A DNA stretch of 64,000 bases from a virus (taxonomy: Duplodnaviria > Heunggongvirae > Uroviricota > Caudoviricetes): IMG/VR virus record IMGVR_UViG_3300033141_002732. One strand, 5' to 3'. A program made the translations under genes and the position numbers. Each line of letters starts with the position of its first letter. The first letter of the stretch is position 1. Shown in pieces: positions 37,545 to 54,138 of the stretch. The notes under the pieces are model-generated. The model worked only from the letters and a program-made list of their open reading frames with translations. It was not told where the DNA came from and did not search any database.

Positions 37545-38444
37545 ATGAATCTTATAATTCCAGTTGAGTCGATTTTTCAAAATAAAGGTGGAGTGATATT
37601 ATATAATCCATATAAAAATAAAATTATTGATTATTATATTCATGATAGAAAATGGAGGAGAGTTGGTTGGAGAGGTGGAATTTTATATAATGATTATTTA
37701 ATAGCTACTGATTGGAATGAATTACATTATTTCAATATAAAAAAATGGAAGTATGAATATACATTTAGAAAAAAGAGTTTTAATGATCTTCATTATGTAC
37801 AAGTTAACAAAAATAAATTATTTGTTGTTAATACAGGTATTGATGCAATAGAAATATTTAATAATCCAATGGAACCAAAATTTGAAAGAATTGAATTTGT
37901 ATTTAAATTAAATAAAATGTTTAAAGATAGATATATTGATTTAAATAGAAAATATAATAAAATGTATAAAATAAAACCACATTCATGTCACCCTAATTGT
38001 ATATCTTTTAATGAACATGGAACTTATATTACATGTTTTCAAAGACAACAAAAAATAAATACAGGTCAATTAATTGATATGAAAAGTGGTAAAAAATTGT
38101 TTCATAGAAATATGGATTGTCATGATGGATTATTTTATAAAAATGATTTTTATTTAACAAAAACTAGACAATCAAAAATTTTGAAATTTAAAAATCTGAG
38201 ACCTGTGAAAAATAATATACCAGACGAAATTATTGATATTGGTCATAAAGGTTGGTGGCGAGGTATGGTTATTCATAATGATATAATATTTATTTTTTGT
38301 AGCAGAGGTTATTCTAATAAAAAATCTAAAGCAATTATGGCTATGATAGATTTACAAACACAACATACTACTTTTAAGAAACTTCCAGTGTGTGGTGATA
38401 TACATTGGGATACAATTTATCAACCAAATGTTTTTGAGGGATAA
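37545..38444 (+). CDS. hypothetical protein
   Basis: 299-aa ORF between family-A paralogs. Confidence 0.4.
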   Translation: MNLIIPVESIFQNKGGVILYNPYKNKIIDYYIHDRKWRRVGWRGGILYNDYLIATDWNELHYFNIKKWKYEYTFRKKSFNDLHYVQVNKNKLFVVNTGIDAIEIFNNPMEPKFERIEFVFKLNKMFKDRYIDLNRKYNKMYKIKPHSCHPNCISFNEHGTYITCFQRQQKINTGQLIDMKSGKKLFHRNMDCHDGLFYKNDFYLTKTRQSKILKFKNLRPVKNNIPDEIIDIGHKGWWRGMVIHNDIIFIFCSRGYSNKKSKAIMAMIDLQTQHTTFKKLPVCGDIHWDTIYQPNVFEG

Positions 38445-39233
38445 ATGTTATATAATCTTAATCATATTTTAAAAGATATTGAATATCATTTAAATAATAA
38501 AAAACCATTCTCTTTAGTTCGATTAGGAGATGGAGATATTAAATTATTACATTCAGCATGTCAAGGAATTGTTCATAATGATAAATTTAGAAGACAAGGA
38601 ATCCCAGGAAGTGATTTAAATATAGTTATTCAAATATATAGAAAAAGTTGTAATAATGCTAATTATATTTCTTCTTTTGATGTATATTTTGATGGTAATT
38701 TTTGGTCAAGAAAAAGTTCTTCTGGAACTAGAAAAAAGTTAGAAAGCTGGAAAAAAATTTATAAAAAAATTGGAATTCAAAATCAAAGTTATTGCAATCC
38801 AGAAATTGGTTTTCTTTTGTTTTTAAGATCTAAATATAATTTATTTAACTTAATTAAAGATAAAAAAATATGTCTTATTACTTGTTTTAAGTCTATTGAG
38901 TTAAAATTACGAAAACTTAATTATGATGTGAATACTATATTAATTCCAAAAATATATTCAAATCATTATTCTAAATACAAACCAAATAAATTATTGATAA
39001 AAAGTTCTATTGAGAAAAATGATATATTTTTAATTGGAGCTGGAGGACTCGGAAAAGGTTATTCAAAAGTTATTAAAAGAAATGGTGGGATAGCAATTGA
39101 TATTGGTCAAGTTTTTAATTCATGGGCTGGAAGTGTAATACCTCCTAGAATTTCAAAGTATATGAAATTAAATGAAAAAGATTTGACATTTAGATTTACA
39201 AAAATTGGAGAAAAATTTAGAGAATGGATATAA
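38445..39233 (+). CDS. paralog family A member 2
   Basis: 'KPFSLVRLGDGD', 'IFLIGAGGLGKGYSKVIKRNGGIAIDIGQVFNSWAG'. Confidence 0.45.
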   Translation: MLYNLNHILKDIEYHLNNKKPFSLVRLGDGDIKLLHSACQGIVHNDKFRRQGIPGSDLNIVIQIYRKSCNNANYISSFDVYFDGNFWSRKSSSGTRKKLESWKKIYKKIGIQNQSYCNPEIGFLLFLRSKYNLFNLIKDKKICLITCFKSIELKLRKLNYDVNTILIPKIYSNHYSKYKPNKLLIKSSIEKNDIFLIGAGGLGKGYSKVIKRNGGIAIDIGQVFNSWAGSVIPPRISKYMKLNEKDLTFRFTKIGEKFREWI

Positions 39234-39460
39234 AGAATATTCCAGAAGGTTATTATGTTTGTCCACAATGTAATGGAACTGGTTCTGATTATACTGAAAT
39301 TAGAGAAAATAAAAAATATTCTAGAATTTGTGATAAATGTAATGGTGGTGGAATAATAGATTGGATTACAATGATATTACCTTGTAAACATAATATGTCA
39401 ACTATACGAGAGTATAAACTTACTTTTATACATAACAAAAAAAGAAGGAGAAAAAAATGA
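39224..39460 (+). CDS. small DnaJ-type zinc-finger-like protein
   Basis: 'CPQCNGTGSD...CDKCNGGGII' CxxCxGxG repeats. Confidence 0.35.
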   Translation: MDIKNIPEGYYVCPQCNGTGSDYTEIRENKKYSRICDKCNGGGIIDWITMILPCKHNMSTIREYKLTFIHNKKRRRKK

Positions 39461-40590
39461 AAACAATATTAGTAACAGGCGCTGATGGTTATTGCGGTTG
39501 GCCAACGATTTTAAGATTATTATCAGAAATTCCTATGTGTAAAGTTATAGGAGTTGATAACCAGTCAAGAAGAGAATGGGTTAAAGAAATTGGTTCTGAT
39601 AGTGTAATACCAATTTATAATTTATATGAAAGGTCTAAATTAGTTGATAAAGATAAACTTGAAGTTTTTAAAAATTGTGATTTAACTGATTATAATATTG
39701 TAAATGATTTATTTACAAAATATAAACCAGATATTGTTCTGCATCTTGCTTCACAACCTTCTGCCCCATATTCTCATATTGATATTGAACATTGTAACTT
39801 TACACAACATAATAATCTTCAAATGTTAAGAAATATATTATGGTCTTTAAATAACAATAAAATGGATCGTACTCATTTGGTTGTTACAACAACAACTGGA
39901 ATATATGGCGCGCCTTCATTTAGAATTCCAGAAGGAAATTTAGACATTGTTGATAAATTATTACCATATCCATCAATGGGTGGAAGCTGGTACCATATGA
40001 GTAGAGCACATGATGCAGCAAATTTATGGTTAGCAAATAAACAATTTAATTTTCCTATAACTGAAATGAGAACTTCTATTGTTGTGGGAAGTTCAACTCG
40101 TGAAACGAGAGTAGATCCAATTTTAGCAACAAGAACTGATGTAGATTTTTATTTTGGAGTTGTTACAAATAGATTTGTTGCTATGGCTTTGAAGAATGAA
40201 CCGCTTACAATATATGGAAAAGGTTTACAAGGGAAACCTATGATTTCTTTGGAAGATATGGTTAAATCTATGGTTGATATTTGTAAAGTTGATCCAACTA
40301 GTAGAGAAAATAAATATGAAATATATAACCAAATGGAAAAAGTAGTTCCTATAGTTGATATTGCACAAACTATTAAAGCTACAATGAATATAATGTTTGG
40401 ATTGAATGTCGAAATAAAACATATTCCAAATCCTAGAATTGAAGATGAATCTCATCATATGGAAATGGATAATTTTAAATTTAAGAAATTAATAGGTGGT
40501 AAATTTATTTGTCCTATAGAACAAGCAGTTTCTCAAATGTGTTCAGATTTGTACAAATATAAAGATAGAATAGGAAAGTTTAGTAATTAA
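39457..40590 (+). CDS. NAD-dependent sugar-nucleotide epimerase/dehydratase, SQD1 (UDP-sulfoquinovose synthase)-like
   Basis: N-terminal 'ILVTGADGYCGWPTILRL' resembles the SQD1 'GGDGYCGW' Rossmann motif; 'YHMSRAHD' YxxxK-like region. Confidence 0.55.
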   Translation: MKTILVTGADGYCGWPTILRLLSEIPMCKVIGVDNQSRREWVKEIGSDSVIPIYNLYERSKLVDKDKLEVFKNCDLTDYNIVNDLFTKYKPDIVLHLASQPSAPYSHIDIEHCNFTQHNNLQMLRNILWSLNNNKMDRTHLVVTTTTGIYGAPSFRIPEGNLDIVDKLLPYPSMGGSWYHMSRAHDAANLWLANKQFNFPITEMRTSIVVGSSTRETRVDPILATRTDVDFYFGVVTNRFVAMALKNEPLTIYGKGLQGKPMISLEDMVKSMVDICKVDPTSRENKYEIYNQMEKVVPIVDIAQTIKATMNIMFGLNVEIKHIPNPRIEDESHHMEMDNFKFKKLIGGKFICPIEQAVSQMCSDLYKYKDRIGKFSN

Positions 40591-40607
40591 AAAGGAGATA
40601 TAGAATT

Positions 40608-41606
40608 ATGTTAAATATTACAGTTCTCGGAGGATTAGGTTATATTGGAAGTCATTTAAGTAGAATGCTAGTTGATTCTGGACATAATGTAACAATTTTA
40701 GATATTGCTTGGTTTGGATTTGATCATATAAATGATGTTTTAGAGAAAGAGAATTGTGAATGGATTAATGGAGATATCAGACATTCAGAAGATCTAAGTT
40801 GTGCTATAAAGAATAGTGATGTTGTTGTTCATCTCGCAGGAATAGTTGGAGACCCTGCTTGTTCACTTGATAATGATGAAACATGGTTACAAAATATTGA
40901 ATCTTCTAATTTAATAGTAGATGTTTGTAATCATTATGATATTCAAAAATTTATATTTGCATCTAGTTGTAGTGTATATGGTGCAGCACCATCTGATATT
41001 CTTCTTAATGAAGGATCTTATTTAAATCCTGTTTCCTTATATGCAGAAAGTAAAATAAAATCTGAAAAAATCTTTCTTAGTGAATTTAATAATATATGCA
41101 CAATTTTACGATTATCTACTGTTTTTGGATATTCTGAAAGAATGAGATTTGACCTTGTTGCTAACCTTTTTACAATAAAAGCAATTAAAGAGAAAAAGAT
41201 TCAGGTGTTTGGTGGATCTCAATATAGACCTTTTATTCATTGTAAAGATGTTGCAAGAGCAATTAAAAAAGTTATTGATTTTCCAGATAAAATTAAAATT
41301 GATAAAGAAGTATTTAATATTTCAGTTGAAAATATCTCAATACGAGAACTTGGTATACTAGTTTCTGAATTAACTGATTCTGATATAGAACTTGTTGAGA
41401 CAAAAGAAGATGATAGAAATTATAAAGTATCTGCAGATAAAATAAAATGGTTACTGGGTTATAAACCATATTTTGGTTTAGCTTCTGGTATTTTACATAT
41501 GATAGAATCTATAAAAGGGAAAAGATTTGATGATTGGGTAACAAATAAACAAAAATATGAGAATGTAAATAATCTTCAAGAAAGGAGAAAAACAAACATA
41601 AAATGA
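40608..41606 (+). CDS. NAD-dependent epimerase/dehydratase (SDR family)
   Basis: 'ITVLGGLGYIGSHL' Rossmann motif, 'YAESK' catalytic YxxxK. Confidence 0.65.
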   Translation: MLNITVLGGLGYIGSHLSRMLVDSGHNVTILDIAWFGFDHINDVLEKENCEWINGDIRHSEDLSCAIKNSDVVVHLAGIVGDPACSLDNDETWLQNIESSNLIVDVCNHYDIQKFIFASSCSVYGAAPSDILLNEGSYLNPVSLYAESKIKSEKIFLSEFNNICTILRLSTVFGYSERMRFDLVANLFTIKAIKEKKIQVFGGSQYRPFIHCKDVARAIKKVIDFPDKIKIDKEVFNISVENISIRELGILVSELTDSDIELVETKEDDRNYKVSADKIKWLLGYKPYFGLASGILHMIESIKGKRFDDWVTNKQKYENVNNLQERRKTNIK

Positions 41607-42112
41607 AAAAGGAGTTTTTTATGAAGTATATAGTTTATTTAGTAGGTCAGATTACAGCAAATCCAGAAACATATGCTTGGAGAGAAAGAGTATCATTATA
41701 TTTTAATACTAACAGAAATAAAGTTGATTCTGATATTGAAGTTATTAATCCATGTAATAGTTTGTTTAATAAGAATTTAATTGATAATTGTAGAAATAAT
41801 TCTGTTGAGTATTCAAAATGGGTATTAAAACGAGATCCGAGTTTATTAGTTCCAAAAGATAGAAGATTTGTTAAAAGAGCAAATGTATTATTTGTTAATA
41901 TGAATATGTATTCTCCTGAGAAACCAATGTTAGGATCTTTTTTTGAATTAGCTTGGGCTTATGATTCTCCAGAAAAGATGGTGATTGGAATATTTAATGG
42001 AGATCATGAAAAAGATTTTCAGTGTAGACATCCATTTGTTAGTCAAATTATACATTCTTGGGTTAAAGATGAAATTGAAGCCTGTAAATTATTAGAATAT
42101 TATATTGATTAA
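41603..42112 (+). CDS. nucleoside 2-deoxyribosyltransferase-like protein
   Basis: 'YLVGQI...' N-terminus and 'PMLGSFFELAWAY' resembling the NDT 'GTAFEiGyA' active-site Glu region. Confidence 0.45.
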   Translation: MKKEFFMKYIVYLVGQITANPETYAWRERVSLYFNTNRNKVDSDIEVINPCNSLFNKNLIDNCRNNSVEYSKWVLKRDPSLLVPKDRRFVKRANVLFVNMNMYSPEKPMLGSFFELAWAYDSPEKMVIGIFNGDHEKDFQCRHPFVSQIIHSWVKDEIEACKLLEYYID

Positions 42113-42325
42113 AGTGAATTAAAGTGAGGTGAAAAATTTGAAAGAAATAAAATTTTTATTAAAACATTTATATACAACAGCATTAGTTTCTTCATGATGG
42201 TTATATGTATATATTCCTAATAATTATTCTTTATCTTTATCAACAATTTTTAGTGTAATTACTATTATTTTAGCATGTTGGTATTTAGTTTATCATTGGG
42301 ATGATTGTTAGAAAGGATTTTTGAT

Positions 42326-42568
42326 ATGATGAGAAAAAATGGGTTATTAGATTTTGTTATGGGAGTATTATATGCTACTATATTATGGGCACATTTTACT
42401 TTTAAATTGGAGTGGTTGCTTCCTTTTATTTTAATTAGTACTATTGCTACAGTAATTATGTTTGTAGTAAGATCATTTTTACAAAAGGAAAAAAGAAATC
42501 ATAATAAAACAAATAAAAAAAGTTCTTTAGAAGAAGTAACTAATGTAAAAATAGGACCTTTAGGATAG
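42326..42568 (+). CDS. small membrane protein
   Basis: Two TM helices; start moved to the ATG at 42326 (the ORF-track start is TTG). Confidence 0.35.
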   Translation: MMRKNGLLDFVMGVLYATILWAHFTFKLEWLLPFILISTIATVIMFVVRSFLQKEKRNHNKTNKKSSLEEVTNVKIGPLG

Positions 42569-42582
42569 AAGGGAGTTTTCTA

Positions 42583-43740
42583 ATGATAAAAGTTGCTGAA
42601 CCTATTATTGATGATAAAGAAATAGATGTTGCAATTTCAGTATTAAAATCTGGAAATTATACATCTGGTAAATATGTTCAAAAATTTGAAGAAATGTTTG
42701 CAGAATATATTGGAGTTAAATATGCTGTAGCTGTGAATAGCGGAACTGCTGCTCTACACCTTTCTTTATTATCATTGGGATTAACTAAAGATAGATATTC
42801 AAATGGAGAAGTTATTGTTCCACCAATGACATTTTTTGCAACTATATCTTCTGTTTTAAATGTTGGGTTAATTCCTAATTTTGTAGATACAAATTATATT
42901 TGTAATATTGATCATACATTAATAGAGTCAAATATTAATGAAAATACATTAGCTATTATACCAGTACATTTTTATGGACATCCATGTAATATGAATGAAA
43001 TAATGAAAATAGCTAATAAATATAATCTTTTTGTAATTGAAGATTGCGCTCAAGCACATGGAGCTTCTATAAATAATAAAAAAGTTGGTTCTTATGGTAT
43101 AACTGGATGTTTTTCATTTTTTGCTACTAAAAATATGACTACTATAGAAGGCGGAATGATTACTACTGATGAAAAGTTTATATATGAAAAAGCTAAAAAA
43201 TTAAGAAGTCATGGAATGATTGATAGAGATACACATTCTTTACTTGGTTATAATTATAGAATGAATGAATTATCTGGAGCTATTGGAATTGAACAATTAA
43301 AAAAGTTAGATATGTTAAATAAAAAAAGAATTGAAAATTCTGAATATTTATCTAAAAATATAAAACAAACTAATTTTATACAACCATTGTATAATGAAAA
43401 TTTTTTGACTGTCTCTAATTGTAAAAATAATACATATAAAAATGTCTATTTTTGGTTTCCAATAACAACAATGAAATTTTGTTCTGTTGATTTAAAAAAT
43501 CATTTAAAGAAGAATGATATTGGTTTTAGAAGTAGATATAATGAACCATTATATAAACAACCATTATTTAGAGAATATACATATAAACCAAATAGATGTA
43601 GATGTGAAAATGCCGAATTATTTTCTGGAGTAGTTTTTGGATTACCTAATCATCCAGGTTTATCAAGAGAGGAATTAGATAAAGTTATTGATGTAGTTAA
43701 TACTTTTGAATTTAAAGTATATGATGAATTTGATTTCTAA
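42583..43740 (+). CDS. DegT/DnrJ/EryC1/StrS-family PLP-dependent sugar aminotransferase
   Basis: 'AEPIIDDKEIDVAISVLKSGNYTSGKYVQKFEEMFAEYIGVKYAVAVNSGTAALHLSL' is the canonical family N-terminus; 'FSFFATKNMTTIEGG' has the Lys region. Confidence 0.75.
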   Translation: MIKVAEPIIDDKEIDVAISVLKSGNYTSGKYVQKFEEMFAEYIGVKYAVAVNSGTAALHLSLLSLGLTKDRYSNGEVIVPPMTFFATISSVLNVGLIPNFVDTNYICNIDHTLIESNINENTLAIIPVHFYGHPCNMNEIMKIANKYNLFVIEDCAQAHGASINNKKVGSYGITGCFSFFATKNMTTIEGGMITTDEKFIYEKAKKLRSHGMIDRDTHSLLGYNYRMNELSGAIGIEQLKKLDMLNKKRIENSEYLSKNIKQTNFIQPLYNENFLTVSNCKNNTYKNVYFWFPITTMKFCSVDLKNHLKKNDIGFRSRYNEPLYKQPLFREYTYKPNRCRCENAELFSGVVFGLPNHPGLSREELDKVIDVVNTFEFKVYDEFDF

Positions 43741-43772
43741 TTCTTTGTAATTAAAAATAAGGATATTTAATT

Positions 43773-44627
43773 TTGAAAAAATTAGACAGACAATTATATT
43801 ATATTCATAGTACAGAAGAAATATTAAAAGATTTAAATAATTGTATTAGAAAGAAAAAACCATTTTCTGTAATGAGATTTGGTGACGCTTGTTTGGGAAT
43901 TATGTGTTCTTTTTTAGCTCCAAATTTTATAAAACATGGAAAATGGAAAGGTGGACAAAAGTGTGGTTTAGCTAATTCAATATTTAGACAATTAGGAGTT
44001 CCAGTAAAGAGAAGAAAACTAATATGTAATAAACTTGTAAAATATGCAAATGAAGCTAATTATATAGATTCTTTTGATTGTTATTTTACTGAAATGAAAT
44101 CGAAAAAAGGAATTGGTAATTTAGCATTTAGTTGGAAAGAAATTCATGAATTAATTGGTATTACAAACGAATCTTATTGTAGTACTTTTTTACATTATTT
44201 TTCAATAGTGGATGGAGAATATAATTTATTTAATGTAATGAAAAATAGAAGTGTATTTTGTATAAGTAATCAAGTTCAAGTAACTAATTTATTAAAAGAT
44301 AAGAGTGGAGCTAAAATAATAGATTCATATAAAATACCAAGAAGAGGTGGTAAATTTCATTACCAAAATCATTATAGAAATGTTATAAATATGATTAAAA
44401 AGAATTCTACTAAATATGATCTATTCTTAATTGGAGCTGGATTATTAGGTAAAATATATTGTGGAGTTATTAAAGAGAATGGTGGAAGAGCATATGATGT
44501 TGGACGATTATTTGATTTTTGGGCTGGAATAAGAAAAATTGATTCTAGACCAAAAAGATTTATTCAAATGGATCATTCTAAATTTTTATGTAATAGATTA
44601 AAGAACTTTGGTGGTAAAGTTTGGTGA
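43773..44627 (+). CDS. paralog family A member 3 (TTG start)
   Basis: 'KPFSVMRFGDAC', 'LFLIGAGLLGKIYCGVIKENGGRAYDVGRLFDFWAG'. Confidence 0.45.
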   Translation: MKKLDRQLYYIHSTEEILKDLNNCIRKKKPFSVMRFGDACLGIMCSFLAPNFIKHGKWKGGQKCGLANSIFRQLGVPVKRRKLICNKLVKYANEANYIDSFDCYFTEMKSKKGIGNLAFSWKEIHELIGITNESYCSTFLHYFSIVDGEYNLFNVMKNRSVFCISNQVQVTNLLKDKSGAKIIDSYKIPRRGGKFHYQNHYRNVINMIKKNSTKYDLFLIGAGLLGKIYCGVIKENGGRAYDVGRLFDFWAGIRKIDSRPKRFIQMDHSKFLCNRLKNFGGKVW

Positions 44628-45724
44628 AAGGGAAAATAATGATGAATTGTGTATCTAAATATATAACTATAAAAGATGAAATGAAATTAGAAGCATATTA
44701 TATTAAATCTCCATTACTTTCTGATTATAATTTGTCTTTTGGATCAATTGATTGTTATGATTCAATTTTTGTAATTATATCTGATAATAATAAAATGGGA
44801 ATTGGAGAGGTTACTAATTTATTTAAGTATTCTAGATATACTATTGATGAGGTATGGAATTATACAATCCAATGGTTGTCTGATTTTTCTTTAAATAAAT
44901 TAAATTCAATTGTAAGAAAAAATTTTAAGAGTGTTGCTATTAATCTTGCAATTGAAACATATAATGATGATTTTTTAAATAAAATTTCTAATTTAAAATT
45001 AGAAGTTCCAGTTAGCTATACTTTAACTGATGTAAATGATATTGATATATTAGATATAATTAGTAAATTTGGTGATGTATTTAAATTTAAAATTGGAAAA
45101 GATATTTATCAAGATATTTATAACATTGGTTATATACAATCTAAATTAAGAGGAACTAACTTTAAACTTAGACTAGATGCTAATCAAGGTTACAGTCTTC
45201 TTGATGCTAAAAAATTTCTAAAATGTGTTCTAGATAAAAATATTGAACATTTTGAACAGTTACTTCCAAGAGATCAATCTTATATGAATCGTGAATTAAT
45301 GAAAGAATTTCCGCATAAATTTATATTAGATGAAAGTATTTTTAGTAATAGTGATATAGCAGTTATGTCTGAATCTAAAACAGCACATGGAGTAAAGTTA
45401 AAATTATTTAAACATAATAGTATACAAGAAACAATTGATCTTATATATAATATTCCAGATGAATTTGATATCATTTTTGGAAATGGAGTACAATCTTATA
45501 TAGCAACAATATATGAAATGTATATATTTAATGAAGCAAAAAAAATAAAACAAAATTTAAATCCTATTTCTGAAATTAATGGTATATTAAAATTGTCAGA
45601 ACAACTTGGTGGAGTGTCCTATTCAGGAAATAAATTAATTGTGAATGTAAGAGAATTAATTAATAATTTCTTTAAATTTTTAGAGGAACATTGTAATGTC
45701 AACAATAATAGGATTAGCTTGTAG
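44621..45724 (+). CDS. enolase-superfamily enzyme (MR/MLE-like, e.g. dipeptide epimerase/OSBS-like)
   Basis: 'FKLRLDANQGYSL' (R.DANQ..), 'FILDESIFS', 'KLKLFKHNS', in the order of MR/MLE metal ligands. Confidence 0.45.
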   Translation: MVKGKIMMNCVSKYITIKDEMKLEAYYIKSPLLSDYNLSFGSIDCYDSIFVIISDNNKMGIGEVTNLFKYSRYTIDEVWNYTIQWLSDFSLNKLNSIVRKNFKSVAINLAIETYNDDFLNKISNLKLEVPVSYTLTDVNDIDILDIISKFGDVFKFKIGKDIYQDIYNIGYIQSKLRGTNFKLRLDANQGYSLLDAKKFLKCVLDKNIEHFEQLLPRDQSYMNRELMKEFPHKFILDESIFSNSDIAVMSESKTAHGVKLKLFKHNSIQETIDLIYNIPDEFDIIFGNGVQSYIATIYEMYIFNEAKKIKQNLNPISEINGILKLSEQLGGVSYSGNKLIVNVRELINNFFKFLEEHCNVNNNRISL

Positions 45725-46934
45725 TTTAAGAAGTAAGATTGATGAAAAGTGGGTAGAAAAGGTATGTAAGGAAGAAATAAAAACTGATCAAGATTTACAT
45801 AATCTTATTGAAATACTTGGAAGAGATAAAGTTATTAGTAATTCAGATGCTTGTTTAATTGCTGCTATGTATGGAGTAGTTAAAGAAGAATGTGATATAA
45901 AAGTTATTAGAATGTCAGATTTTCATCCTTCAATATTAGATTCACTTATATTTAGAGGAGTTATTGTGTCTACTCCAGTTTATTTTGGAGATAATTCCTC
46001 ATATTCGAAAAAATTCTTTTATAAGATGAGAGATTTAAAATTATTAAATTCTAAAGTATTTTCTGTATTATCTGTTGGAGCTAAAAGAAATGGTGGTCAA
46101 GAAACAAGTAATATATTTTCATTATATGAAGCACTATCTCAAGGGTGTAGACTTGTAGGAAATGGTTTTGCTATATCACAATATGGTGGGACTGCTTGGG
46201 CTGGCGATCTTGGTTCTGTTAGAGAAGATACATATGGAATTGAAACAAGTTTAAGTACTGGAATGAATAATGCAAGAGTTTCAAATTTATTCATTGAAAG
46301 ATCTTTTAATATAAAAGAAAAAACAAAATTAAATATTACTTTTCTTAATACTAAAAATAGTAATATTTATTCTTTTGTAGATAAGTTACAAAACTTAATA
46401 CCAAAAAATTTAATAGATTTATATGTAAGTTATATTGATATTTCTAGATATTATATTTCTCCTTGTAAAGCTTGTTCAGTCTGTCCAAAACCAAATTCTA
46501 AAATTGATTATAAATGTAGACAAATTGATGAGAATAAAGAAATTTGTGAACGTTTAGTAAATTCAGATCTAATAGTTAAAGTTAATGATCATGATATAGA
46601 TTTTGATATTTTTATGGAAAGAACTAGACATTTGAGAAGAGATAATTATAGATTATCTCATATTCCATTCGTTACTTATATTGATAAACAATGCGATAGT
46701 TCTTTTGTTGTAATTAATGATTTTACTAAATTTATTAGACATAATGTAATTATATTTCCTCCTTTAATAACTACAAATTATAAAAATCAAACATTAAAAG
46801 GTAATGATACTGATGAATATTATGTAAGAAAAATGTTAGATTATATTGCAGAAGCACTTAGAATTAAGAAGAACAAAATAGAAAATAAATCTACTTTTGA
46901 ATATAAACCAATAGGTTATAAGCAGAAAGGATAA
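45696..46934 (+). CDS. flavodoxin-fold (NAD(P)H-dependent FMN reductase-like) protein with Cys cluster
   Basis: 'VIVSTPVYFGDNSSYSKKFFYKM' resembles the FMN-reductase 'SPeYngs..g.lKn..D' region; 'CKACSVCP...C'. Confidence 0.3.
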   Translation: MSTIIGLACSLRSKIDEKWVEKVCKEEIKTDQDLHNLIEILGRDKVISNSDACLIAAMYGVVKEECDIKVIRMSDFHPSILDSLIFRGVIVSTPVYFGDNSSYSKKFFYKMRDLKLLNSKVFSVLSVGAKRNGGQETSNIFSLYEALSQGCRLVGNGFAISQYGGTAWAGDLGSVREDTYGIETSLSTGMNNARVSNLFIERSFNIKEKTKLNITFLNTKNSNIYSFVDKLQNLIPKNLIDLYVSYIDISRYYISPCKACSVCPKPNSKIDYKCRQIDENKEICERLVNSDLIVKVNDHDIDFDIFMERTRHLRRDNYRLSHIPFVTYIDKQCDSSFVVINDFTKFIRHNVIIFPPLITTNYKNQTLKGNDTDEYYVRKMLDYIAEALRIKKNKIENKSTFEYKPIGYKQKG

Positions 46935-46936
46935 AT

Positions 46937-48019
46937 ATGTATAATATATTAATTTCAACTTCTGGTGCTGGAAATGCTAATAATTTGGTTAGAAGTTTAC
47001 AATCATCTAATGATCTTAATATGATTACAAATCTTAATATAATTGGTATAAATAGTTCTGAATATGAATTAAGTAAATCAATAGCGCATAAAAAATATTT
47101 AGTTCCAAAATTTAATAATCCCGAATATGTGAATTCTATTTTAGAAATATTTAATCGAGAAAAAATAGATTTTTTTATACCAAATCATGAATTTGAAATT
47201 GAAGCTTTATATAGATATGATAATCAAGAGATTTTAGATAAATGTTTTTTACCATCTTTTGAAACAGTTGTATTATGTAATAATAAATATAATTTAAATA
47301 AGAAATTACATGAAGAAGGAATTTATGTTCCAGTATCTATAAATATACAAAAATGGTTTGATATAGATTCTTATTTTGATGAACAACTAGTTGAAAAACC
47401 TGCTTGGTGTAGATTAATTAGAGGTGCTGGTTCAGCAGGTGCAACTCTAGTTTATGATAAAGAACATGCTAAATCATGGATTGAGTATTGGATAAGTCAT
47501 AAGGGAGCAGAAATTGATCAATTTATGTTAAGTGAATATTTGCCATTTGAAGATTATCACTTTTTTAGTCTTTGGAAAGATGGAAATATGATAATTGGTA
47601 AATATATTGAAAGATTAGCTTATGTATGTTCTAAATATACTTTAACAGGAACATCTTCTTCACCATCTGTTTGTAAATTAGATAATGATCCAGTAATTAA
47701 AGCGATATGTGAAGAAGCAGTTAAATGTATTGATCCAAATGCAAATGGTTTATTTGGAATAGATTTAAAATGTGATTCTCGACATTCACCATGTATAACA
47801 GAAATTAATATAGGAAGGTTTCCAAGAATTAATCCAATTTTTAGTATGGTTGGAAATAATATAGCAGAACTATTTGTAAAAATTGGATTAGGATTAGAAG
47901 AATATGAAATAGATGAAAAACTTGATGATGATATTTATTATATGTTTAGAGATTTTGATACTGAACCAGTAATAATACATGCAAAAGATTTAAAAAATAA
48001 ATATACTAATTTAAGTTAG
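46937..48019 (+). CDS. ATP-grasp ligase
   Basis: 360-aa ORF with 'ITEINIGRFP' resembling the ATP-grasp C-terminal 'E.N.R' motif and 'DQFMLSEYLP...EDYHF' central-domain-like segments. Confidence 0.45.
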   Translation: MYNILISTSGAGNANNLVRSLQSSNDLNMITNLNIIGINSSEYELSKSIAHKKYLVPKFNNPEYVNSILEIFNREKIDFFIPNHEFEIEALYRYDNQEILDKCFLPSFETVVLCNNKYNLNKKLHEEGIYVPVSINIQKWFDIDSYFDEQLVEKPAWCRLIRGAGSAGATLVYDKEHAKSWIEYWISHKGAEIDQFMLSEYLPFEDYHFFSLWKDGNMIIGKYIERLAYVCSKYTLTGTSSSPSVCKLDNDPVIKAICEEAVKCIDPNANGLFGIDLKCDSRHSPCITEINIGRFPRINPIFSMVGNNIAELFVKIGLGLEEYEIDEKLDDDIYYMFRDFDTEPVIIHAKDLKNKYTNLS

Positions 48020-48062
48020 CAATTTTATAATGTTATTATAAAATTCAGGAGGAGTTATTTTT

Positions 48063-48962
48063 ATGGTTCGTATATTTGGTACCAGATATATTTTAAAACA
48101 TTTAAATAGTTGTATAGTTCATAATAAATCTTTTTCTACTATTAGATTTGGTGATGCTTGTTTATTTATATTATCTTCAACTTTTTGTAGACAATTTGAA
48201 AAGGGAAAAGGTAAAATTTCAAATAAAATTTTTGATGGATTGAATATTCCTCCAAATAAAAGATTAGAAATAGTTCAAGATTTGGTTAAATATGCTAATC
48301 AAGCAGATTATGTTGATGCACAAAGTGCTGTACTAGTTGAGATTCCAAAATTTCTTCCTATTATGGAAGAATTTATAAAAAGTGGAAATACTAATTTTGG
48401 TCAAGTTTGGGAAAGATTATGTTTAAAAACTAAGGGACAAGGAAGAGGTGTAGGAAATGTAATGAGTAGATGGAGAGAAATTTATAAAGAATCTGGAATA
48501 ACAAATAATTCATTTTGTAGTCCTCATCTTCATTCATTTTCTATAATTGATGGTGAATATAATTTATTTGATATAATGAAAAATAGGAATATTTTTTGTA
48601 TAAGTAATAATATTGAAGTTTGTGATAGATTACAAAAAAAGAGTGGTGCTAAGAATATAGATTATTTTAGAGTTGTGAGGAGAGGATCTAAAAAACACTA
48701 TCCATTATATTATCAAAACGTAATGGATATAATATCTAAAAAAGCTATTAAATATGATCTATTCTTAATTGGAGCTGGATTATTAGGAAAGATATATTGT
48801 GGTTATGTAAAAGAATGTGGTGGTAGATCATTCGATGCTGGAAGGTTATTTGATGTATGGAAAGGTAAAAATATTAGATCTATTCCAGCTAGATTTTTAG
48901 TGATGAATAAACAAAAAATGCTTTGTGAAAGAAAGAAAAATAAAAATGGGAGAGTATGGTAA
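48063..48962 (+). CDS. paralog family A member 4
   Basis: 'KSFSTIRFGDAC', 'LFLIGAGLLGKIYCGYVKECGGRSFDAGRLFDVWKG'. Shares a near-identical 53-nt DNA stretch with member 3. Confidence 0.45.
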   Translation: MVRIFGTRYILKHLNSCIVHNKSFSTIRFGDACLFILSSTFCRQFEKGKGKISNKIFDGLNIPPNKRLEIVQDLVKYANQADYVDAQSAVLVEIPKFLPIMEEFIKSGNTNFGQVWERLCLKTKGQGRGVGNVMSRWREIYKESGITNNSFCSPHLHSFSIIDGEYNLFDIMKNRNIFCISNNIEVCDRLQKKSGAKNIDYFRVVRRGSKKHYPLYYQNVMDIISKKAIKYDLFLIGAGLLGKIYCGYVKECGGRSFDAGRLFDVWKGKNIRSIPARFLVMNKQKMLCERKKNKNGRVW

Positions 48963-51249: not shown

Positions 51250-52497
51250 ATGAATATATCTTATAAATATAAAAATAAGATTTTTAATAACATAAGAGAT
51301 ATTATTGAAAATAATCGATTATATCCAGATTTTCATTTCTTTCAAGAAGAGTTTATTCCATTTCAAGGATTTATGTCTGGAAGAACTTTTTTTGAAGGAG
51401 TGTCTATACATTCGGATATTAAATTTGATGTATTAGATCAAAGACAAGAAGAATTTAATTTTGATTTTTTTGTTACTTGTATTAATAAATATCTTCGTAA
51501 TCATGATTATAAATCTTTAAAGAATCCAATTTCTGCTGTGTCTGGTGGAGTTGATTCTTCTACTATTGCATTAACATTAAAACCATCAACAATATATTCT
51601 GGGTATTATGAAGGAGATGATTTTTTTAGTGAACTTCCATATTCTAGTTTAGTAGCGTCTGCAATTGATGCTAAACATTATAAATTTAAATTAGACGAAG
51701 ATGATTTTATTAACAATTTATCTGATTATTTTGAGGTTATAGGAAATCCAATTGCTGGTATGGGTGGAGTAATGGAATTTACTTTAATTAAGAAGATTCT
51801 TAAAGAAGTAGATACTGATGTAATATTATTTGGAAATGGTGGTGATGAAATATTTTTGGGATATTACTTTAATTATTTTGTAAAAGAATTTTATGAATAT
51901 GGTCAACAAAAACCACTATACATGCCAAATTTTTATCCACAGAAAAAGTCGATTACTAATAATGTTATAGATTTTATGATTCTTTCTTCTCTCAATAGAG
52001 GATCAGTTGATTTTATGTATACTGATTTTGTTTATTCAAAATTACTTCCACAATTAGAGAAAATGAACTCAATTCTTGAAAAGATTTTATATGTTAATAT
52101 TAATTATACTTTACCGTCATTACTACATCCATATAATCAATATTCTCATGAATTTGGAATTAAATGTTTGAATCCATTGTCTAATGAAGATTTTATAAAA
52201 AACTCACTATATCTTAATACTCCAATTTCTGAAGTTCCAAAGAAAAGATTGAGAGATATAAATCCAATTCTACCAGATGAAATTAAATATAATTTTGTTA
52301 AAAGAGGTTTTCCAATGCCAATTAAGAATTGGACTAAATTGAGTAAATTAATAGAAAAATATTATCATAGATTTTTTGATAGAAAAGAAGTTAAAATTAT
52401 AAAACTTCCTTATAATGGAATAGATAGATTCGCTTGGGGTGTATTTCAAGTGGAATGGTTTTTAGAACATTATTTTGATAATAATTTTAAGGGATAA
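51250..52497 (+). CDS. PP-loop amidotransferase (asparagine synthase-like / WbpG-type N-acetyl sugar amidotransferase)
   Basis: PP-loop 'SAVSGGVDSSTIAL'. Confidence 0.5.
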   Translation: MNISYKYKNKIFNNIRDIIENNRLYPDFHFFQEEFIPFQGFMSGRTFFEGVSIHSDIKFDVLDQRQEEFNFDFFVTCINKYLRNHDYKSLKNPISAVSGGVDSSTIALTLKPSTIYSGYYEGDDFFSELPYSSLVASAIDAKHYKFKLDEDDFINNLSDYFEVIGNPIAGMGGVMEFTLIKKILKEVDTDVILFGNGGDEIFLGYYFNYFVKEFYEYGQQKPLYMPNFYPQKKSITNNVIDFMILSSLNRGSVDFMYTDFVYSKLLPQLEKMNSILEKILYVNINYTLPSLLHPYNQYSHEFGIKCLNPLSNEDFIKNSLYLNTPISEVPKKRLRDINPILPDEIKYNFVKRGFPMPIKNWTKLSKLIEKYYHRFFDRKEVKIIKLPYNGIDRFAWGVFQVEWFLEHYFDNNFKG

Positions 52498-52500
52498 AAA

Positions 52501-53262
52501 ATGAAAGTAATAGATTTTCATATACATATAGGTAAAACAGAAAAAACTAGGTTTTATTGTACTTTTGATAATCTTCAAAATAAAATTTCAAGTGGAGAAA
52601 TTGATAAAGCTGTAATTTTTCCGAATGTATCAAGTATAATTAAAGATAGTGAACTAAATAGTAAATTTTTTCATGAAACAGATAATTATTTTGATATGAT
52701 TTCTTCAAATATATATCTTTTTCTTCTTGTAGATCCTAATGATAAAGAAACTTTAAATCAAATTATTAATAATCAAAATGTTATTAATGGAGTTAAATTT
52801 CATCCAAGTATTACAAGAGTAACTGCTGATAGTAGTAGAATGGATCCATTTTGGGAAGTATGTAAAATTCATCATTATCCAGTAATTGTTCATTGTGGGA
52901 GAGATGCAATTAGTAATATAATATATTTAATTACAGCTGCAAGAAAACATAAAGATGTAAACTTTATTGGAGCACATCTTGGAGGAAATGCTACAGATAT
53001 TATAGATAAATCATTATCTATTTTGAAACAAGAAAAAAATTTAGATAATTTATATTTAGATACTTCTTCTGGAAGATTTCCAGAATTAATAAAAACTGCA
53101 GTTGAATCAATAGGAGCAGAAAGAATAATTTTTGGTTCTGATATTCCTTATGCTGATTTAAAAATTAGTAAATTATGTGTAGAGTTTGCTAATATAAAAG
53201 ATAGTGAAAAGGAGTTGATTTTTTATAAAAATGCTGAAATATTATTGGAAAACACTAATTAG
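52501..53262 (+). CDS. metal-dependent amidohydrolase (TIM barrel)
   Basis: 'MKVIDFHIHIG' HxH at N-terminus; 'VIVHCG', 'GAHLGG', 'FGSDIPY' in amidohydrolase_2-like order. Confidence 0.5.
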   Translation: MKVIDFHIHIGKTEKTRFYCTFDNLQNKISSGEIDKAVIFPNVSSIIKDSELNSKFFHETDNYFDMISSNIYLFLLVDPNDKETLNQIINNQNVINGVKFHPSITRVTADSSRMDPFWEVCKIHHYPVIVHCGRDAISNIIYLITAARKHKDVNFIGAHLGGNATDIIDKSLSILKQEKNLDNLYLDTSSGRFPELIKTAVESIGAERIIFGSDIPYADLKISKLCVEFANIKDSEKELIFYKNAEILLENTN

Positions 53263-53812
53263 TTTAATTCGTGGGCTTATATATGGAAAGCAGTTATGTT
53301 TTATTGGAACAAACGTAAAATTGGGAAAGAATGTTAGAATAAGTTATTTGGTTTCAATAGAAGATAATTGTCAAATTGGTAATAATACTTTTATTGGATA
53401 TTGTTGTATATTAAGACCTAATGTTAAAATTGGAAATGATTGTTCTTTTGGTCATTTAACTGTTATTGAGAAAAATGTTATAATTAAAAATCGAGTTTCT
53501 TTTCATGCTCAATGTCATATAACAGAAGGAACATATGTTGAAGATAATGTTTTTGTTGCGCCAATGTTTATGGGAACTAATACAAAAATAATAGATCATG
53601 GAAGAAATTTAAATCCTCCTATTGAAGGTCCTATTATTAGAAGAGCCGTAAGAATAGCCTCTAATGTAAAATTACTTCCTGGAGTTGAAATAGGAGAGAA
53701 TGCTTTAATTGGAATCGGTTCTGTAGTTACTAAAGATGTTCCTCCAAGAGAAATATGGTTTGGAAATCCAGCTAGAAAATTTGGAAATGTGAAGGAAGAT
53801 GAAATTTTATGA
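53231..53812 (+). CDS. hexapeptide-repeat (LbH) acyltransferase
   Basis: Repeating [LIV]-G-x-x-x-x hexads: 'NVKLGKNVRISY..IEDNCQIGNNTFIGY..LRPNVKIGNDCSFGH'. Confidence 0.55.
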   Translation: MLKYYWKTLISLIRGLIYGKQLCFIGTNVKLGKNVRISYLVSIEDNCQIGNNTFIGYCCILRPNVKIGNDCSFGHLTVIEKNVIIKNRVSFHAQCHITEGTYVEDNVFVAPMFMGTNTKIIDHGRNLNPPIEGPIIRRAVRIASNVKLLPGVEIGENALIGIGSVVTKDVPPREIWFGNPARKFGNVKEDEIL

Positions 53813-54138
53813 GAAAAAATGAAAACTCATGTAAAGGATGTGAATTTTTAGGTAGTGATTCATGTAGAGATATATTTTGGTATGTTTGTAGTCATGATTC
53901 CATACTAGAAGAATATCCAGAAGCATTAATATTAAATCAAGATTTAGAAACTCCAGATTGGTGTCCGTTAAGAATTTCTAATGATGATATTGAAATTGAA
54001 AAAGTGATTAATTACATTAGAAAATTTAAAAATCAAATTAAAAGAGTTTATGGATCTTATAATCATGGAAGTGTTTTCTCACCTGTTTATACTCAAGAAA
54101 ATTCCCCACCTGATCAGATAATTATTGTATTTAAATAA
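53809..54138 (+). CDS. small Cys-containing hypothetical protein
   Basis: 109 aa. Confidence 0.35.
   Translation: MRKNENSCKGCEFLGSDSCRDIFWYVCSHDSILEEYPEALILNQDLETPDWCPLRISNDDIEIEKVINYIRKFKNQIKRVYGSYNHGSVFSPVYTQENSPPDQIIIVFK

What the first reader, a model, noticed from the sequence alone, without database searches (positions are those of the whole stretch)
43773..48962. Sub-cluster of enolase-superfamily enzyme, flavodoxin-fold protein and ATP-grasp ligase, bracketed by two family-A paralogs
An MR/MLE-type enolase-superfamily member ('RLDANQGYS'), a flavodoxin-fold protein with a Cys cluster and an ATP-grasp ligase lie between paralog A3 and A4. This combination is characteristic of amino-acid or peptide ligation and epimerisation, for example D-amino-acid-containing appendages. 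It suggests the glycan, or whatever the real substrate is, carries an amino-acyl or peptide decoration.
Basis: inference. Interest (0 to 1): 0.6.

Follow-up and report, generated by a model that had tools for sequence, protein, structure and literature searches.

The report
Conserved sugar-acylation cassette in a phage
An uncultured large phage carries, inside a sugar-building gene island, a three-gene unit (enolase-family enzyme, unusual iron-sulfur-type flavoprotein, ATP-dependent amide ligase) that recurs in the glycan gene clusters of many uncultured bacteria and archaea and probably attaches a tailored acid or amino acid to an amino sugar; none of its members has been studied experimentally.

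Summary
Five co-directional, tightly packed genes lie at 43773-48962: GT-D-like glycosyltransferase, MLE-subgroup enolase-superfamily enzyme, flavoprotein, ATP-grasp ligase, second GT-D-like paralog. All pass Pfam thresholds.

The trio is a recurrent cassette, not a chance neighbourhood. All 12 loci retrieved through the enolase-type enzyme alone have the flavoprotein next to it, and 9 of the 10 with enough flank have an ATP-grasp. Of 33 loci retrieved through the flavoprotein, 29 have a carboxylate-activating ligase within five genes and 19 have the enolase-type enzyme.

The "flavodoxin" is a rare tandem WrbA/Isf-like protein with an invariant CxxCxxC motif. It is the constant core of the cassette. 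The enolase-type enzyme is a frequent add-on and is absent from the window's closest syntenic relatives.

The enolase-type enzyme keeps the full two-lysine, three-ligand catalytic set. It is closest to N-succinyl-amino-acid racemase and dipeptide epimerases but lacks the dipeptide-epimerase DxD motif, and it is not an OSBS equivalog.

Best reading: amide decoration of a 4-amino-6-deoxy sugar made by the adjacent dehydratase and aminotransferase, with a redox-tailored and stereo-inverted acid. The acyl group and the flavoprotein's reaction remain unknown.

The parts
39457..40590 (+). SDR related to UDP-sulfoquinovose synthase; putative NDP-hexose 4,6-dehydratase-type enzyme of the island
   Evidence: NCBIfam UDPsulfquin_syn, 312 bits, below the cut-off of 575. 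Pfam Epimerase. 55-58% identical homologs sit in syntenic loci L025, L034, L041 and L042.
40608..41606 (+). SDR epimerase/dehydratase
   Evidence: Pfam Epimerase 1e-39. Syntenic in L025, L034, L041, L042 and L101.
42583..43740 (+). PLP sugar aminotransferase (DegT/PseC-like) that would make the amino sugar
   Evidence: Pfam DegT_DnrJ_EryC1 3.8e-106. Best NCBIfam hit is PseC, 257.7 bits, below cut-off. It lies directly upstream of the cassette here and in L002, L101, L025 and L034.
43773..44627 (+). GT-D-like glycosyltransferase, paralog A3
   Evidence: Pfam GT-D-like 1.3e-10. 48% identical to A4.
44621..45724 (+). Enolase-superfamily enzyme of the MLE subgroup. The ORF runs from TTG at 44621; the database gene call starts at ATG 44639.
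   Evidence: Pfam MR_MLE_C. Catalytic residues K155/K157, D186, E212, D237 and K261 are invariant across the family. The family profile hits PDB 2p88 at 4.9e-44.
45696..46934 (+). Tandem WrbA/Isf-like flavoprotein with a CxxCxxC...C motif
   Evidence: Pfam FMN_red. Family alignment A3 shows invariant FMN-site motifs and invariant C257, C260 and C263. The AF2 model has pLDDT 86 and two flavodoxin-like halves. The profile hits WrbA and the N-terminus of FLR, 7d38.
46937..48019 (+). ATP-grasp amide ligase (PylC-like N-domain)
   Evidence: Pfam. AF2 pLDDT 92.5. Top Foldseek hits are RizA 4wd3 and BL00235 3vot. 47-54% identical homologs lie next to the flavoprotein in L002, L101, L025, L033 and L034.
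48063..48962 (+). GT-D-like glycosyltransferase, paralog A4
   Evidence: Pfam GT-D-like 3.5e-9.

Best explanation
The three genes form a conserved cassette that tailors an acid and ligates it as an amide onto a sugar of the phage-encoded glycan. The phage copy belongs to a cassette found in glycan clusters of uncultured bacteria and archaea.

Proposed steps:
1. The upstream SDRs (39457-41606) and the DegT-type aminotransferase (42583-43740) make a nucleotide-linked 4-amino-4,6-dideoxyhexose. This is inferred from the families and from conserved synteny.
2. The ATP-grasp enzyme activates a carboxylate as an acyl phosphate and joins it to an amine, most likely the new sugar amine. The chemistry is inferred at family level; the acceptor is inferred from context.
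3. The tandem flavoprotein binds FMN in its N-terminal half and probably an Fe-S cluster or metal at the CxxCxxC...C site of its C-terminal half. It carries out a two-electron redox step on the acid moiety, for example reduction of a C=C or C=N bond. This step is speculative. The WrbA-fold ene-reductase FLR is a precedent.
4. The MLE-subgroup enzyme uses its Mg2+ site and two lysines to remove and return the proton alpha to a free carboxylate of that moiety, inverting its stereocentre as an N-acyl-amino-acid racemase does. This is inferred from the catalytic residues and the nearest characterised relatives. It requires that the acid keeps a free carboxylate, as a dicarboxylic or N-substituted amino acid would.
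5. The flanking GT-D-like transferases then place the decorated sugar on a protein or glycan acceptor. This is inferred.
For: - Family assignments pass Pfam thresholds.
- The MLE and flavoprotein genes are adjacent in 12 of 12 loci found through the MLE alone, and an ATP-grasp is adjacent in 9 of the 10 with enough flank.
- Of 33 non-redundant loci found through the flavoprotein, 29 have a carboxylate-activating ligase within five genes (21 ATP-grasp, 8 AMP-binding). 19 have the MLE and 16 have both MLE and ATP-grasp. DegT or a PIG-L de-N-acetylase, which make or unmask an amine, accompany 13 of the 21 ATP-grasp loci.
- SDR, DegT and the trio are contiguous in three independent contexts: the window, L002 and L101.
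- The AMP-binding variants carry a carrier protein plus an MBOAT or Antibiotic_NAT acyltransferase. This points to the acyl donor as the element shared with the flavoprotein.
- One natural flavoprotein-MLE fusion lies next to an ATP-grasp.
- The MLE family keeps KxK, D, E, D and K invariant, and its profile hits N-succinyl-Arg/Lys racemase 2p88 at 4.9e-44 and YkfB at 1e-36.
- The ATP-grasp model is nearest to L-amino-acid ligases.
- The flavoprotein has conserved FMN-site motifs, invariant cysteines and an invariant Arg-rich ERTRxxRR motif.
- FLR shows that a WrbA-fold protein can be a substrate-specific ene-reductase (PMC7862272).
Against: - No member of the cassette has been characterised, so no substrate is known.
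- An aminoacyl amide made through the alpha-carboxylate leaves no free carboxylate for an enolase-type enzyme. The scheme therefore needs a dicarboxylic acid, or action before ligation.
- About half of the flavoprotein loci lack the MLE, including the closest syntenic relatives L025, L034, L041 and L042.
- Some loci (L102, L004) look like 2,3-diamino-uronic-acid pathways, which favours a uronic acid as the carboxylate.
- MLE-subgroup enzymes with the same residues can also dehydrate (OSBS) or cycloisomerise.
- Cofactor content is predicted, not measured.
- The fusion protein's linker looks like read-through of an intergenic region and rests on a single contig.
Confidence: 0.5

Rival explanations
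1. Uronic-acid route. The ATP-grasp activates the C6 carboxylate of a uronic acid residue and adds an L-amino acid through its amino group. The product is an N-acyl amino acid with a free carboxylate. The MLE enzyme then epimerises it to the D or D-allo form, exactly as an N-acyl-amino-acid racemase would. The flavoprotein does a side reaction.
For: - This is the most natural substrate type for the MLE enzyme's nearest relatives.
- The DxD motif that binds a free N-terminal ammonium is absent (E-x-N instead), as in the N-succinyl-amino-acid racemase 2p88.
- L102 and L004 carry GFO_IDH_MocA, DegT and hexapeptide genes typical of 2,3-diacetamido-uronic-acid pathways.
- AsnB or WbuX-type amidotransferases, which also act on carboxylates, are neighbours in 8 of 33 loci.
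- From my own knowledge, not tested here: ATP-dependent amidoligases on glucuronate (C. jejuni Cj1438) and threonine amide-linked to a uronic acid in the Methanococcus N-glycan.
Against: - No UDP-sugar 6-dehydrogenase was found in the window.
- Here and in L002, L101, L025 and L034 the cassette directly follows a dehydratase and aminotransferase pair, which makes an amine, not an acid.
- The flavoprotein is left without a role.
Confidence: 0.2
2. Dehydration-reduction pair. The MLE enzyme acts as an OSBS-like beta-eliminating dehydratase on a beta-hydroxy or beta-substituted acid. The flavoprotein, physically coupled to it, reduces the resulting enoate or enamine. Together they make a deoxy or stereo-inverted acid, which the ATP-grasp ligates.
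For: - The MLE and flavoprotein genes are always adjacent, overlap here, and are fused once, which suggests hand-over of an intermediate.
- The best NCBIfam hits are OSBS models, and there is a weak MenC_N Pfam hit.
- A WrbA-fold ene-reductase is known (FLR).
Against: - The OSBS scores of 52-59 bits are far below the cut-offs of 130-259.
- The family profile ranks racemases and epimerases above OSBS in the PDB.
- The flavoprotein works without the MLE in about half the loci.
Confidence: 0.17
3. The cassette is unrelated to the glycan. It makes or recycles a free small molecule: a dipeptide or antimetabolite, peptidoglycan-peptide salvage of the L-Ala-D/L-Glu epimerase type, or menaquinone (OSBS).
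For: - Dipeptide epimerases and L-amino-acid ligases are the nearest characterised relatives.
- JGI names some homologs 'L-Ala-D/L-Glu epimerase' or 'o-succinylbenzoate synthase'.
Against: - In most loci examined the cassette sits among glycosyltransferases, sugar SDRs, DegT, Bac_transf, flippase-type or NeuB genes.
- No men genes and no Mpl or peptidase partners are present.
- Curated AEE and OSBS cut-offs are missed by a wide margin.
- The DxD motif is absent.
Confidence: 0.05

Closest known systems
N-succinyl-L-Arg/Lys racemase BC0371 (PDB 2p88) and dipeptide epimerases such as YkfB (1jpm/1tkk); MLE subgroup of the enolase superfamily
   Same: Same fold and the same catalytic set: KxK, the D/E/D metal ligands and a second Lys. 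The family profile matches 2p88 at 4.9e-44 and 1jpm at 1e-36 over the full length. At the 8th-strand position the sequence reads E-x-N, close to the E-L-T of 2p88.
   Different: About 25-30% identity only. The DxD ammonium-binding motif of dipeptide epimerases is missing. It has its own conserved capping-domain motifs (PYxLSF, LPGYSWE) and a GNGVQ strand motif. It is obligately paired with a flavoprotein and lies in glycan clusters, not in amino-acid salvage or peptidoglycan contexts.
WrbA / iron-sulfur flavoprotein (Isf) type flavodoxin-like oxidoreductases, and the WrbA-fold ene-reductase FLR (PDB 7d38)
   Same: The N-terminal half matches WrbA at 1.7e-9 and has FMN-site motifs (TPVYFGD, SVGAKRNGGQET). 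The C-terminal half matches the Cys-containing N-terminus of FLR at 2.8e-7. Foldseek finds WrbA-type folds.
   Different: Two flavodoxin-like halves sit in one 390-520-aa chain. A helical insert splits the phosphate-binding loop. The Cys motif C-x2-C-x2-C-P-x~10-C is in the second half. There is an invariant ERTRxxRR motif. No solved or characterised protein covers both halves.
ATP-grasp amide ligases: L-amino-acid ligases RizA and BL00235, PylC; the uncharacterised 'carbamoyl-phosphate-synthase-like' PRK12767 proteins (PDB 2pn1)
   Same: ATP-grasp fold with a PylC-like N-domain. Top Foldseek hits are 4wd3 and 3vot, with PylC 4ffr also listed. The best sequence-profile hit is 2pn1 at 5.2e-10.
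   Different: 14-19% identity to any solved structure. NCBIfam scores are far below cut-offs. No PylB or PylD partners are present. The substrates are unknown.
Glycan acyl or aminoacyl decoration systems: Dlt-type D-alanylation (AMP-binding, carrier protein, MBOAT), FemAB-type aminoacyl transfer, and ATP-dependent amidation of uronic acids
   Same: All activate a carboxylate and transfer it to a glycan. In 8 of 33 loci the flavoprotein is linked to an AMP-binding ligase instead of the ATP-grasp, some with a carrier protein and an MBOAT or N-acyltransferase, and FemAB-like genes occur in some loci.
   Different: None of the characterised systems contains the tandem flavoprotein or an enolase-superfamily partner. 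The comparison with the characterised systems rests on my own knowledge of them and was not tested here.

Membership tests
Enolase superfamily, MLE subgroup | Lys-x-Lys at the end of strand 2, and a second catalytic Lys at the end of strand 6 | tested here: met
   K155/K157 (FKFKIG) and K261 (KLKLFK) are invariant in alignments of 19 and 12 sequences.
Enolase superfamily, MLE subgroup | Three carboxylate metal ligands (Asp, Glu, Asp) on strands 3-5 | tested here: met
   D186 (DANQ), E212 (EQ) and D237 (LDES) are invariant. Pfam MR_MLE_C scores 41.3 bits against a cut-off of 29.4.
o-Succinylbenzoate synthase (MenC) | Score above the curated equivalog cut-off | tested here: not met
   NCBIfam OSBS models score 23-59 bits against cut-offs of 130-288.
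o-Succinylbenzoate synthase (MenC) | Menaquinone (men) gene context | tested here: not met
   No men genes were found in the window or in related loci.
Dipeptide epimerase (L-Ala-D/L-Glu epimerase type) | Asp-x-Asp motif after the 8th strand, which binds the substrate's N-terminal ammonium group. That this motif defines the family is from my own knowledge of the literature. | tested here: not met
   Where YkfB has D-F-D, the family has an invariant E-x-N (E318-I-N320 in the window protein). NCBIfam A_G_epim scores 29.8 bits against 500.
N-succinyl / N-acyl amino acid racemase | 1,1-proton transfer on an N-acylated amino acid with a free carboxylate | not testable with these tools
   Only similarity is available: 2p88 at 4.9e-44 and NAAAR/NSAR entries at 1e-17 to 1e-21. 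An assay is needed.
ATP-grasp superfamily | ATP-grasp domain and fold | tested here: met
   ATP-grasp_3 scores 34.1 against 23.2 and PylC-like_N 34.6 against 27. The AF2 model (pLDDT 92.5) superposes on ATP-grasp ligases at E down to 6e-18.
PylC (pyrrolysine ligase) | Co-occurrence with PylB and PylD, and orthology to PylC | tested here: not met
   No radical-SAM PylB or PylD is present in the window. PylC 4ffr ranks only 33rd among fold hits at 14% identity.
WrbA / FMN_red flavodoxin-like oxidoreductases | Flavodoxin-like fold with FMN-binding loops | tested here: met
   FMN_red scores 34 bits against 24. The motifs TPVYFGD and SVGAKRNGGQET are invariant or nearly so. The profile hits WrbA at 1.7e-9, and Foldseek finds WrbA. 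Flavin binding itself was not measured.
Iron-sulfur flavoprotein (Isf) | Compact four-Cys motif binding a [4Fe-4S] cluster within a single FMN domain. The motif definition is from my own knowledge. | tested here: inconclusive
   C257, C260 and C263 are invariant and a fourth Cys (274) is mostly conserved. They lie in the second, partly degenerate domain, with about 10 residues before the fourth Cys. No Isf entry appeared among the PDB hits. Cluster binding has not been tested.
GT-D glycosyltransferases | GT-D fold domain | tested here: met
   All four paralogs score above the Pfam GT-D-like cut-off. The NCBIfam GT-D_rel scores are below cut-off.

The most novel reading that the evidence does not exclude
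The tandem Fe-S-type flavoprotein and its enolase-superfamily partner are a new two-enzyme system, sometimes fused into one chain. It would make a so far undescribed acyl donor for glycans, for example a D-configured, deoxygenated or opine-like dicarboxylic amino acid, which an ATP-grasp or AMP-binding ligase then installs. A large phage has acquired the system to put a non-canonical, protease- or receptor-resistant decoration on its own virion glycan or on the host surface. That would define a new function in the MLE subgroup, a new class of WrbA-fold enzymes, and a new type of phage-encoded glycan chemistry.
Probability: 0.3. Interest if true: 0.75.

Novelty: new variant of a known kind. Interest (0 to 1): 0.55.

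Why it matters
Amide-linked acids and amino acids on bacterial and archaeal sugars shape antigenicity and phage or immune recognition, yet the enzymes that make most of these decorations are unknown.

This work defines a compact, recurrent and testable cassette for such a decoration. It centres on a rare flavoprotein family with no characterised member (164 representatives in 1.84 billion proteins). It is paired with an unassigned branch of the enolase superfamily, which is a classic target for function discovery.

Finding the cassette inside a glycan island of roughly 25 kb in a phage of about 150 kb adds to the small body of evidence that large phages build complex glycans of their own. The island also holds four GT-D-like transferases, a dehydratase and aminotransferase pair, WecB, methyltransferases and an amidotransferase-like enzyme.

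The practical gain is a short list of proteins to express and a defined candidate acceptor, an NDP-4-amino-4,6-dideoxyhexose.

Tried and rejected
- blastn of the region and tblastn of the flavoprotein against 50,697 phage records gave no match. The cassette is therefore absent from those deposited phage records.
- PHROGs has no family for any of the five proteins.
- A single-protein scan of IMG/VR with the MLE found nothing. The flavoprotein profile found 7 loci.
- The genome-contig scan returned only MAGs, no cultured organism with the trio. Bradyrhizobium sp. Cp5.3 has only a lone ATP-grasp homolog. Thiovulum sp. ES has the AMP-binding variant without the MLE.
- phmmer of the ATP-grasp against the PDB gave nothing. 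The profile gave only the uncharacterised 2pn1.
- Foldseek with the flavoprotein model found only single-domain WrbA-type proteins. The afdb50 library was unavailable.
- Four literature searches for the gene combination found no description of it.
- The promoter and terminator scan was uninformative in this AT-rich DNA.
- OSBS/menaquinone, canonical dipeptide epimerase and PylC identities were considered and rejected (see the membership tests).
- A link to sulfur chemistry was considered: sulfotransferases near the cassette in L005, L014 and L101, PAPS_reduct in L004, and the SQD1-like gene here. I left it as unexplained co-occurrence typical of marine glycan clusters.

Full report
**Setting**

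The window is very AT-rich (about 24% G+C). Its left third, on the minus strand, carries genes typical of a large tailed phage:
- ribonucleotide reductase, a RecA/UvsX-like recombinase, a Dda/RecD-like helicase, a clamp-loader-type AAA+ protein and a 5'-3' exonuclease;
- HNH endonucleases and a virion structural protein, phrog_18911;
- one tRNA-Arg.

The recombinase is only 27-29% identical to those of deposited large myoviruses. The same proteins occur on JGI metagenome contigs of up to 151,964 bp. I therefore read the window as part of an uncultured phage genome of about 150 kb.

From about 33 to 60 kb, on the plus strand, lies a sugar and glycan island:
- a GT4-type transferase and four GT-D-like transferases;
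- an SDR related to UDP-sulfoquinovose synthase, and two more SDRs;
- a DegT/PseC-like aminotransferase;
- methyltransferases;
- an asparagine-synthase-like enzyme without a glutaminase domain;
- an Amidohydro_2 protein;
- a NeuD/VioB-type acetyltransferase;
- a GT2 transferase;
- a bona fide WecB.

**The observation**

- GT-D-like, 43773-44627;
- MR_MLE_C with a weak MenC_N hit, 44621-45724;
- FMN_red, 45696-46934;
- PylC-like_N plus ATP-grasp_3, 46937-48019;
- GT-D-like, 48063-48962.

The motif RLDANQGYS is at nt 45170-45196, and the flavoprotein has cysteines at 257, 260, 263 and 274. The two bracketing GT-D paralogs are each other's closest relatives (48% identity). They are 26-35% identical to the other two paralogs.

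Spacing suggests one transcription unit with translational coupling. The MLE and flavoprotein genes overlap by 29 nt, and the flavoprotein and ATP-grasp genes are 2 nt apart. No terminator-like site was found.

**Is the trio a real unit?**

Yes. I first took homologs of the MLE-type protein only and looked at their contigs and at genome loci. In all 12 loci a homolog of the 400-500-aa flavoprotein is the immediate neighbour. In 9 of the 10 loci with enough flank an ATP-grasp is adjacent too. The carriers are MAGs of Flavobacteriales, Desulfobacterales, other Deltaproteobacteria, Sedimenticola, Bacteriovoracaceae, Nitrospirota and a Heimdallarchaeote.

I then searched in the other direction with a profile of the flavoprotein, which gave 80 metagenome loci and 7 IMG/VR loci. 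Among 33 non-redundant loci with at least 3 kb on both sides:
- 29 have a carboxylate-activating ligase within five genes (21 ATP-grasp, 8 AMP-binding);
- 19 have the MLE, and 16 have both MLE and ATP-grasp;
- a DegT aminotransferase or a PIG-L de-N-acetylase accompanies 13 of the 21 ATP-grasp loci.

The AMP-binding variants come with a small carrier protein and an MBOAT or an Antibiotic_NAT-type acyltransferase. This is a Dlt-like logic.

Other recurring neighbours are AsnB or WbuX-type amidotransferases, a FemAB/GNAT protein, DUF7033, GT-D-like transferases, GSCFA and sulfotransferases.

The flavoprotein family is small, with 164 representatives at E<=1e-30 in 1.84 billion proteins. Its repeated adjacency therefore cannot be chance.

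One representative, P0381, is a 922-aa flavoprotein-MLE fusion that lies next to an ATP-grasp and a GT4. Its linker looks like translated spacer, so I treat it as suggestive only.

A more distant MLE homolog, P0035 (30% identity), still has the flavoprotein and an ATP-grasp. P0029 (28% identity) sits in a GntR/ADH/TctC context without them, which marks the edge of the subfamily.

**Mosaic origin in the phage**

Part of the window island is syntenic with metagenome loci L025, L034, L041 and L042 at 42-59% amino-acid identity for most of the shared proteins; the flavoprotein is only 32-35% identical. The shared order is: 37545-type protein, GT-D, SQD-like SDR, SDR, DegT, GT-D, a variable segment, flavoprotein, ATP-grasp. 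These loci have 30-33% G+C.

They have no MLE gene. In its place they carry another GT-D, or an SDR-like gene plus a GSCFA gene.

The window's MLE and flavoprotein are instead closest to those of L002 (35% and 43% identity), a bacterial-type cluster with Bac_transf, GT4 and PMT_2 genes. L101, an ENA contig of 151.5 kb, has SDR, DegT, ATP-grasp, flavoprotein and MLE in a row.

So the flavoprotein plus ligase is the core of the cassette, it is tied to a dehydratase and aminotransferase pair, and the MLE enzyme is a frequent add-on.

**The three proteins**

(a) MLE-type enzyme. Alignments of 19 and 12 family members show the complete MLE-subgroup catalytic set as invariant: K155/K157, D186, E212, D237 and K261 in the numbering of the window ORF.

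The family profile ranks solved structures as follows:
- the Bacillus cereus N-succinyl-Arg/Lys racemase 2p88, 4.9e-44;
- YkfB L-Ala-D/L-Glu epimerase, 1e-36;
- other dipeptide epimerases, then muconate cycloisomerases, then NSAR/OSBS entries.

NCBIfam equivalog models for OSBS, AEE, DgcA and MLE are all missed by wide margins. Where dipeptide epimerases have D-x-D, the family has an invariant E-x-N, resembling the E-L-T of 2p88.

The protein is therefore a catalytically competent MLE-subgroup enzyme of a new specificity class. It is most like N-acyl-amino-acid racemases. It is neither an OSBS nor a canonical dipeptide epimerase.

(b) Flavoprotein. The family alignment shows an N-terminal WrbA-like FMN domain. 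It has the motifs TPVYFGD and SVGAKRNGGQET, and a helical insert splits its phosphate loop. A second half carries the invariant C257-x2-C260-x2-C263-P, a mostly conserved fourth Cys, and an invariant Arg-rich ERTRxxRR motif.

The profile hits WrbA with the first half (1.7e-9). With the second half it hits the Cys-containing N-terminus of the flavone ene-reductase FLR, 7d38 (2.8e-7). FLR is a WrbA-fold FMN enzyme that reduces a C=C bond (PMC7862272).

The AlphaFold model (pLDDT 86, pTM 0.89) has two flavodoxin-like halves. Foldseek finds only single-domain WrbA-type proteins. From memory, the Cys spacing recalls iron-sulfur flavoproteins (Isf). That is a lead, not a test.

(c) ATP-grasp. The model is confident (pLDDT 92.5). 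Its best structural neighbours are the L-amino-acid ligases RizA and BL00235, followed by biotin carboxylases, GAR synthetase and PylC. The only sequence-profile hit of note is the uncharacterised 2pn1. Homologs of 47-54% identity sit beside the flavoprotein in L002, L101, L025, L033 and L034.

**Mechanism**

Shown here:
- the families, the catalytic residues and the conserved linkage;
- the glycan context;
- the link to enzymes that generate or unmask a sugar amine.

Inferred: the ATP-grasp forms an amide through an acyl phosphate. The flavoprotein is linked to two unrelated kinds of carboxylate-activating ligase, and the AMP-binding kind comes with acyl-transfer partners. The element shared across these variants is therefore most simply the acyl donor, so the flavoprotein probably makes or modifies the acid.

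The MLE enzyme must act on a carbon alpha to a free carboxylate. It most likely inverts that centre.

In the window and its relatives the acceptor is most likely the 4-amino-4,6-dideoxyhexose made by the upstream genes. This requires that the acid keeps a free carboxylate (a dicarboxylic or N-substituted amino acid), or that tailoring precedes ligation.

The rivals are:
- amino-acid amidation of a uronic acid followed by epimerisation, which fits MLE chemistry best and fits loci such as L102 but is poorly supported in this window;
- a dehydratase and ene-reductase pair;
- a free small-molecule pathway, which the context contradicts.

**Comparison with what is known, and novelty**

Each protein belongs to a known superfamily, and amide decoration of sugars is a known phenomenon. 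The combination is not described. The following were absent from the phage collection, PHROGs, the PDB and the papers I could search:
- the tandem Cys-motif flavoprotein family;
- its obligate pairing with a distinct MLE-subgroup branch;
- its alternative pairing with ATP-grasp or AMP-binding ligases.

I therefore rate it a new variant of a known kind. It is moderately interesting in itself. It would be more interesting if the flavoprotein-MLE pair turns out to make a new acyl donor, or if the phage uses it on its own virion.

Noticed in passing
window 25419-26480 (+): A 353-aa protein matches Pfam Volactin, an archaeal actin-family model, at E 3.9e-66 (224 bits against a cut-off of 35). In NCBIfam it gives only a faint MreBH hit. 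This is an actin-fold cytoskeletal protein encoded by a phage-like contig.
   Followed up: no
window 39457-40590 (+): An SDR scores 312 bits on the UDP-sulfoquinovose synthase model, below the cut-off of 575. It could be a sulfo-sugar synthase or a UDP-hexose 4,6-dehydratase. Sulfotransferases or a PAPS-reductase fragment lie near the cassette in L004, L005, L014 and L101.
   Followed up: partly
window 55412-56796 (+): PyrE-like and PyrF-like genes (orotate phosphoribosyltransferase and OMP decarboxylase, both below curated cut-offs) sit just downstream of the glycan island. They may boost UMP and UDP-sugar supply.
   Followed up: no
window 54986-55360 (+): A 124-aa protein with an RF-1 (peptidyl-tRNA hydrolase, GGQ-type) domain, resembling ArfB or PrfH ribosome-rescue factors.
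   Followed up: no
window 51250-54138 (+): A second tight block: an Asn-synthase-like adenylating enzyme without a glutaminase domain, an Amidohydro_2 protein, a NeuD/VioB-type hexapeptide acetyltransferase, and a 109-aa Cys-rich ORF, with overlapping or abutting genes. It may form another sugar-tailoring unit.
   Followed up: no
P0381 (JGI sample 3300075153, 5.6-kb contig; no DNA held): A 922-aa protein that fuses the tandem flavoprotein to the MLE-type enzyme. It lies between an ATP-grasp and a GT4 gene. The linker of about 75 aa looks like translated spacer, so the fusion needs confirmation.
   Followed up: partly
L025, L034, L041, L042 (metagenome contigs, 30-33% G+C); L033: These contigs share 42-59% identical homologs of most of the island genes they share with window 37545-48962, in the same order (the flavoprotein only 32-35%), but lack the MLE gene. 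L033 also shares a homolog of window 62751-63440. They may be related phages.
   Followed up: partly
L105 (Thiovulum sp. ES, AKKQ01000022.1): The only named organism found with the flavoprotein. There it follows a 77-aa ORF that may be a carrier protein (not confirmed), an AMP-binding ligase and an Antibiotic_NAT acyltransferase. It lies near NeuB and Bac_transf, so this is a nonulosonic-acid type cluster.
   Followed up: partly
window ~18400, ~30300 and ~60000: GC skew changes sign where gene orientation switches: minus-strand replication genes at 1-18.4 kb, plus-strand genes afterwards, and a short minus-strand block at 30.4-33.0 kb.
   Followed up: no
window 4178-5056 (-) and 28801-29424 (+): Two HNH endonuclease genes. 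One lies next to the ribonucleotide reductase gene and may be a homing endonuclease.
   Followed up: no
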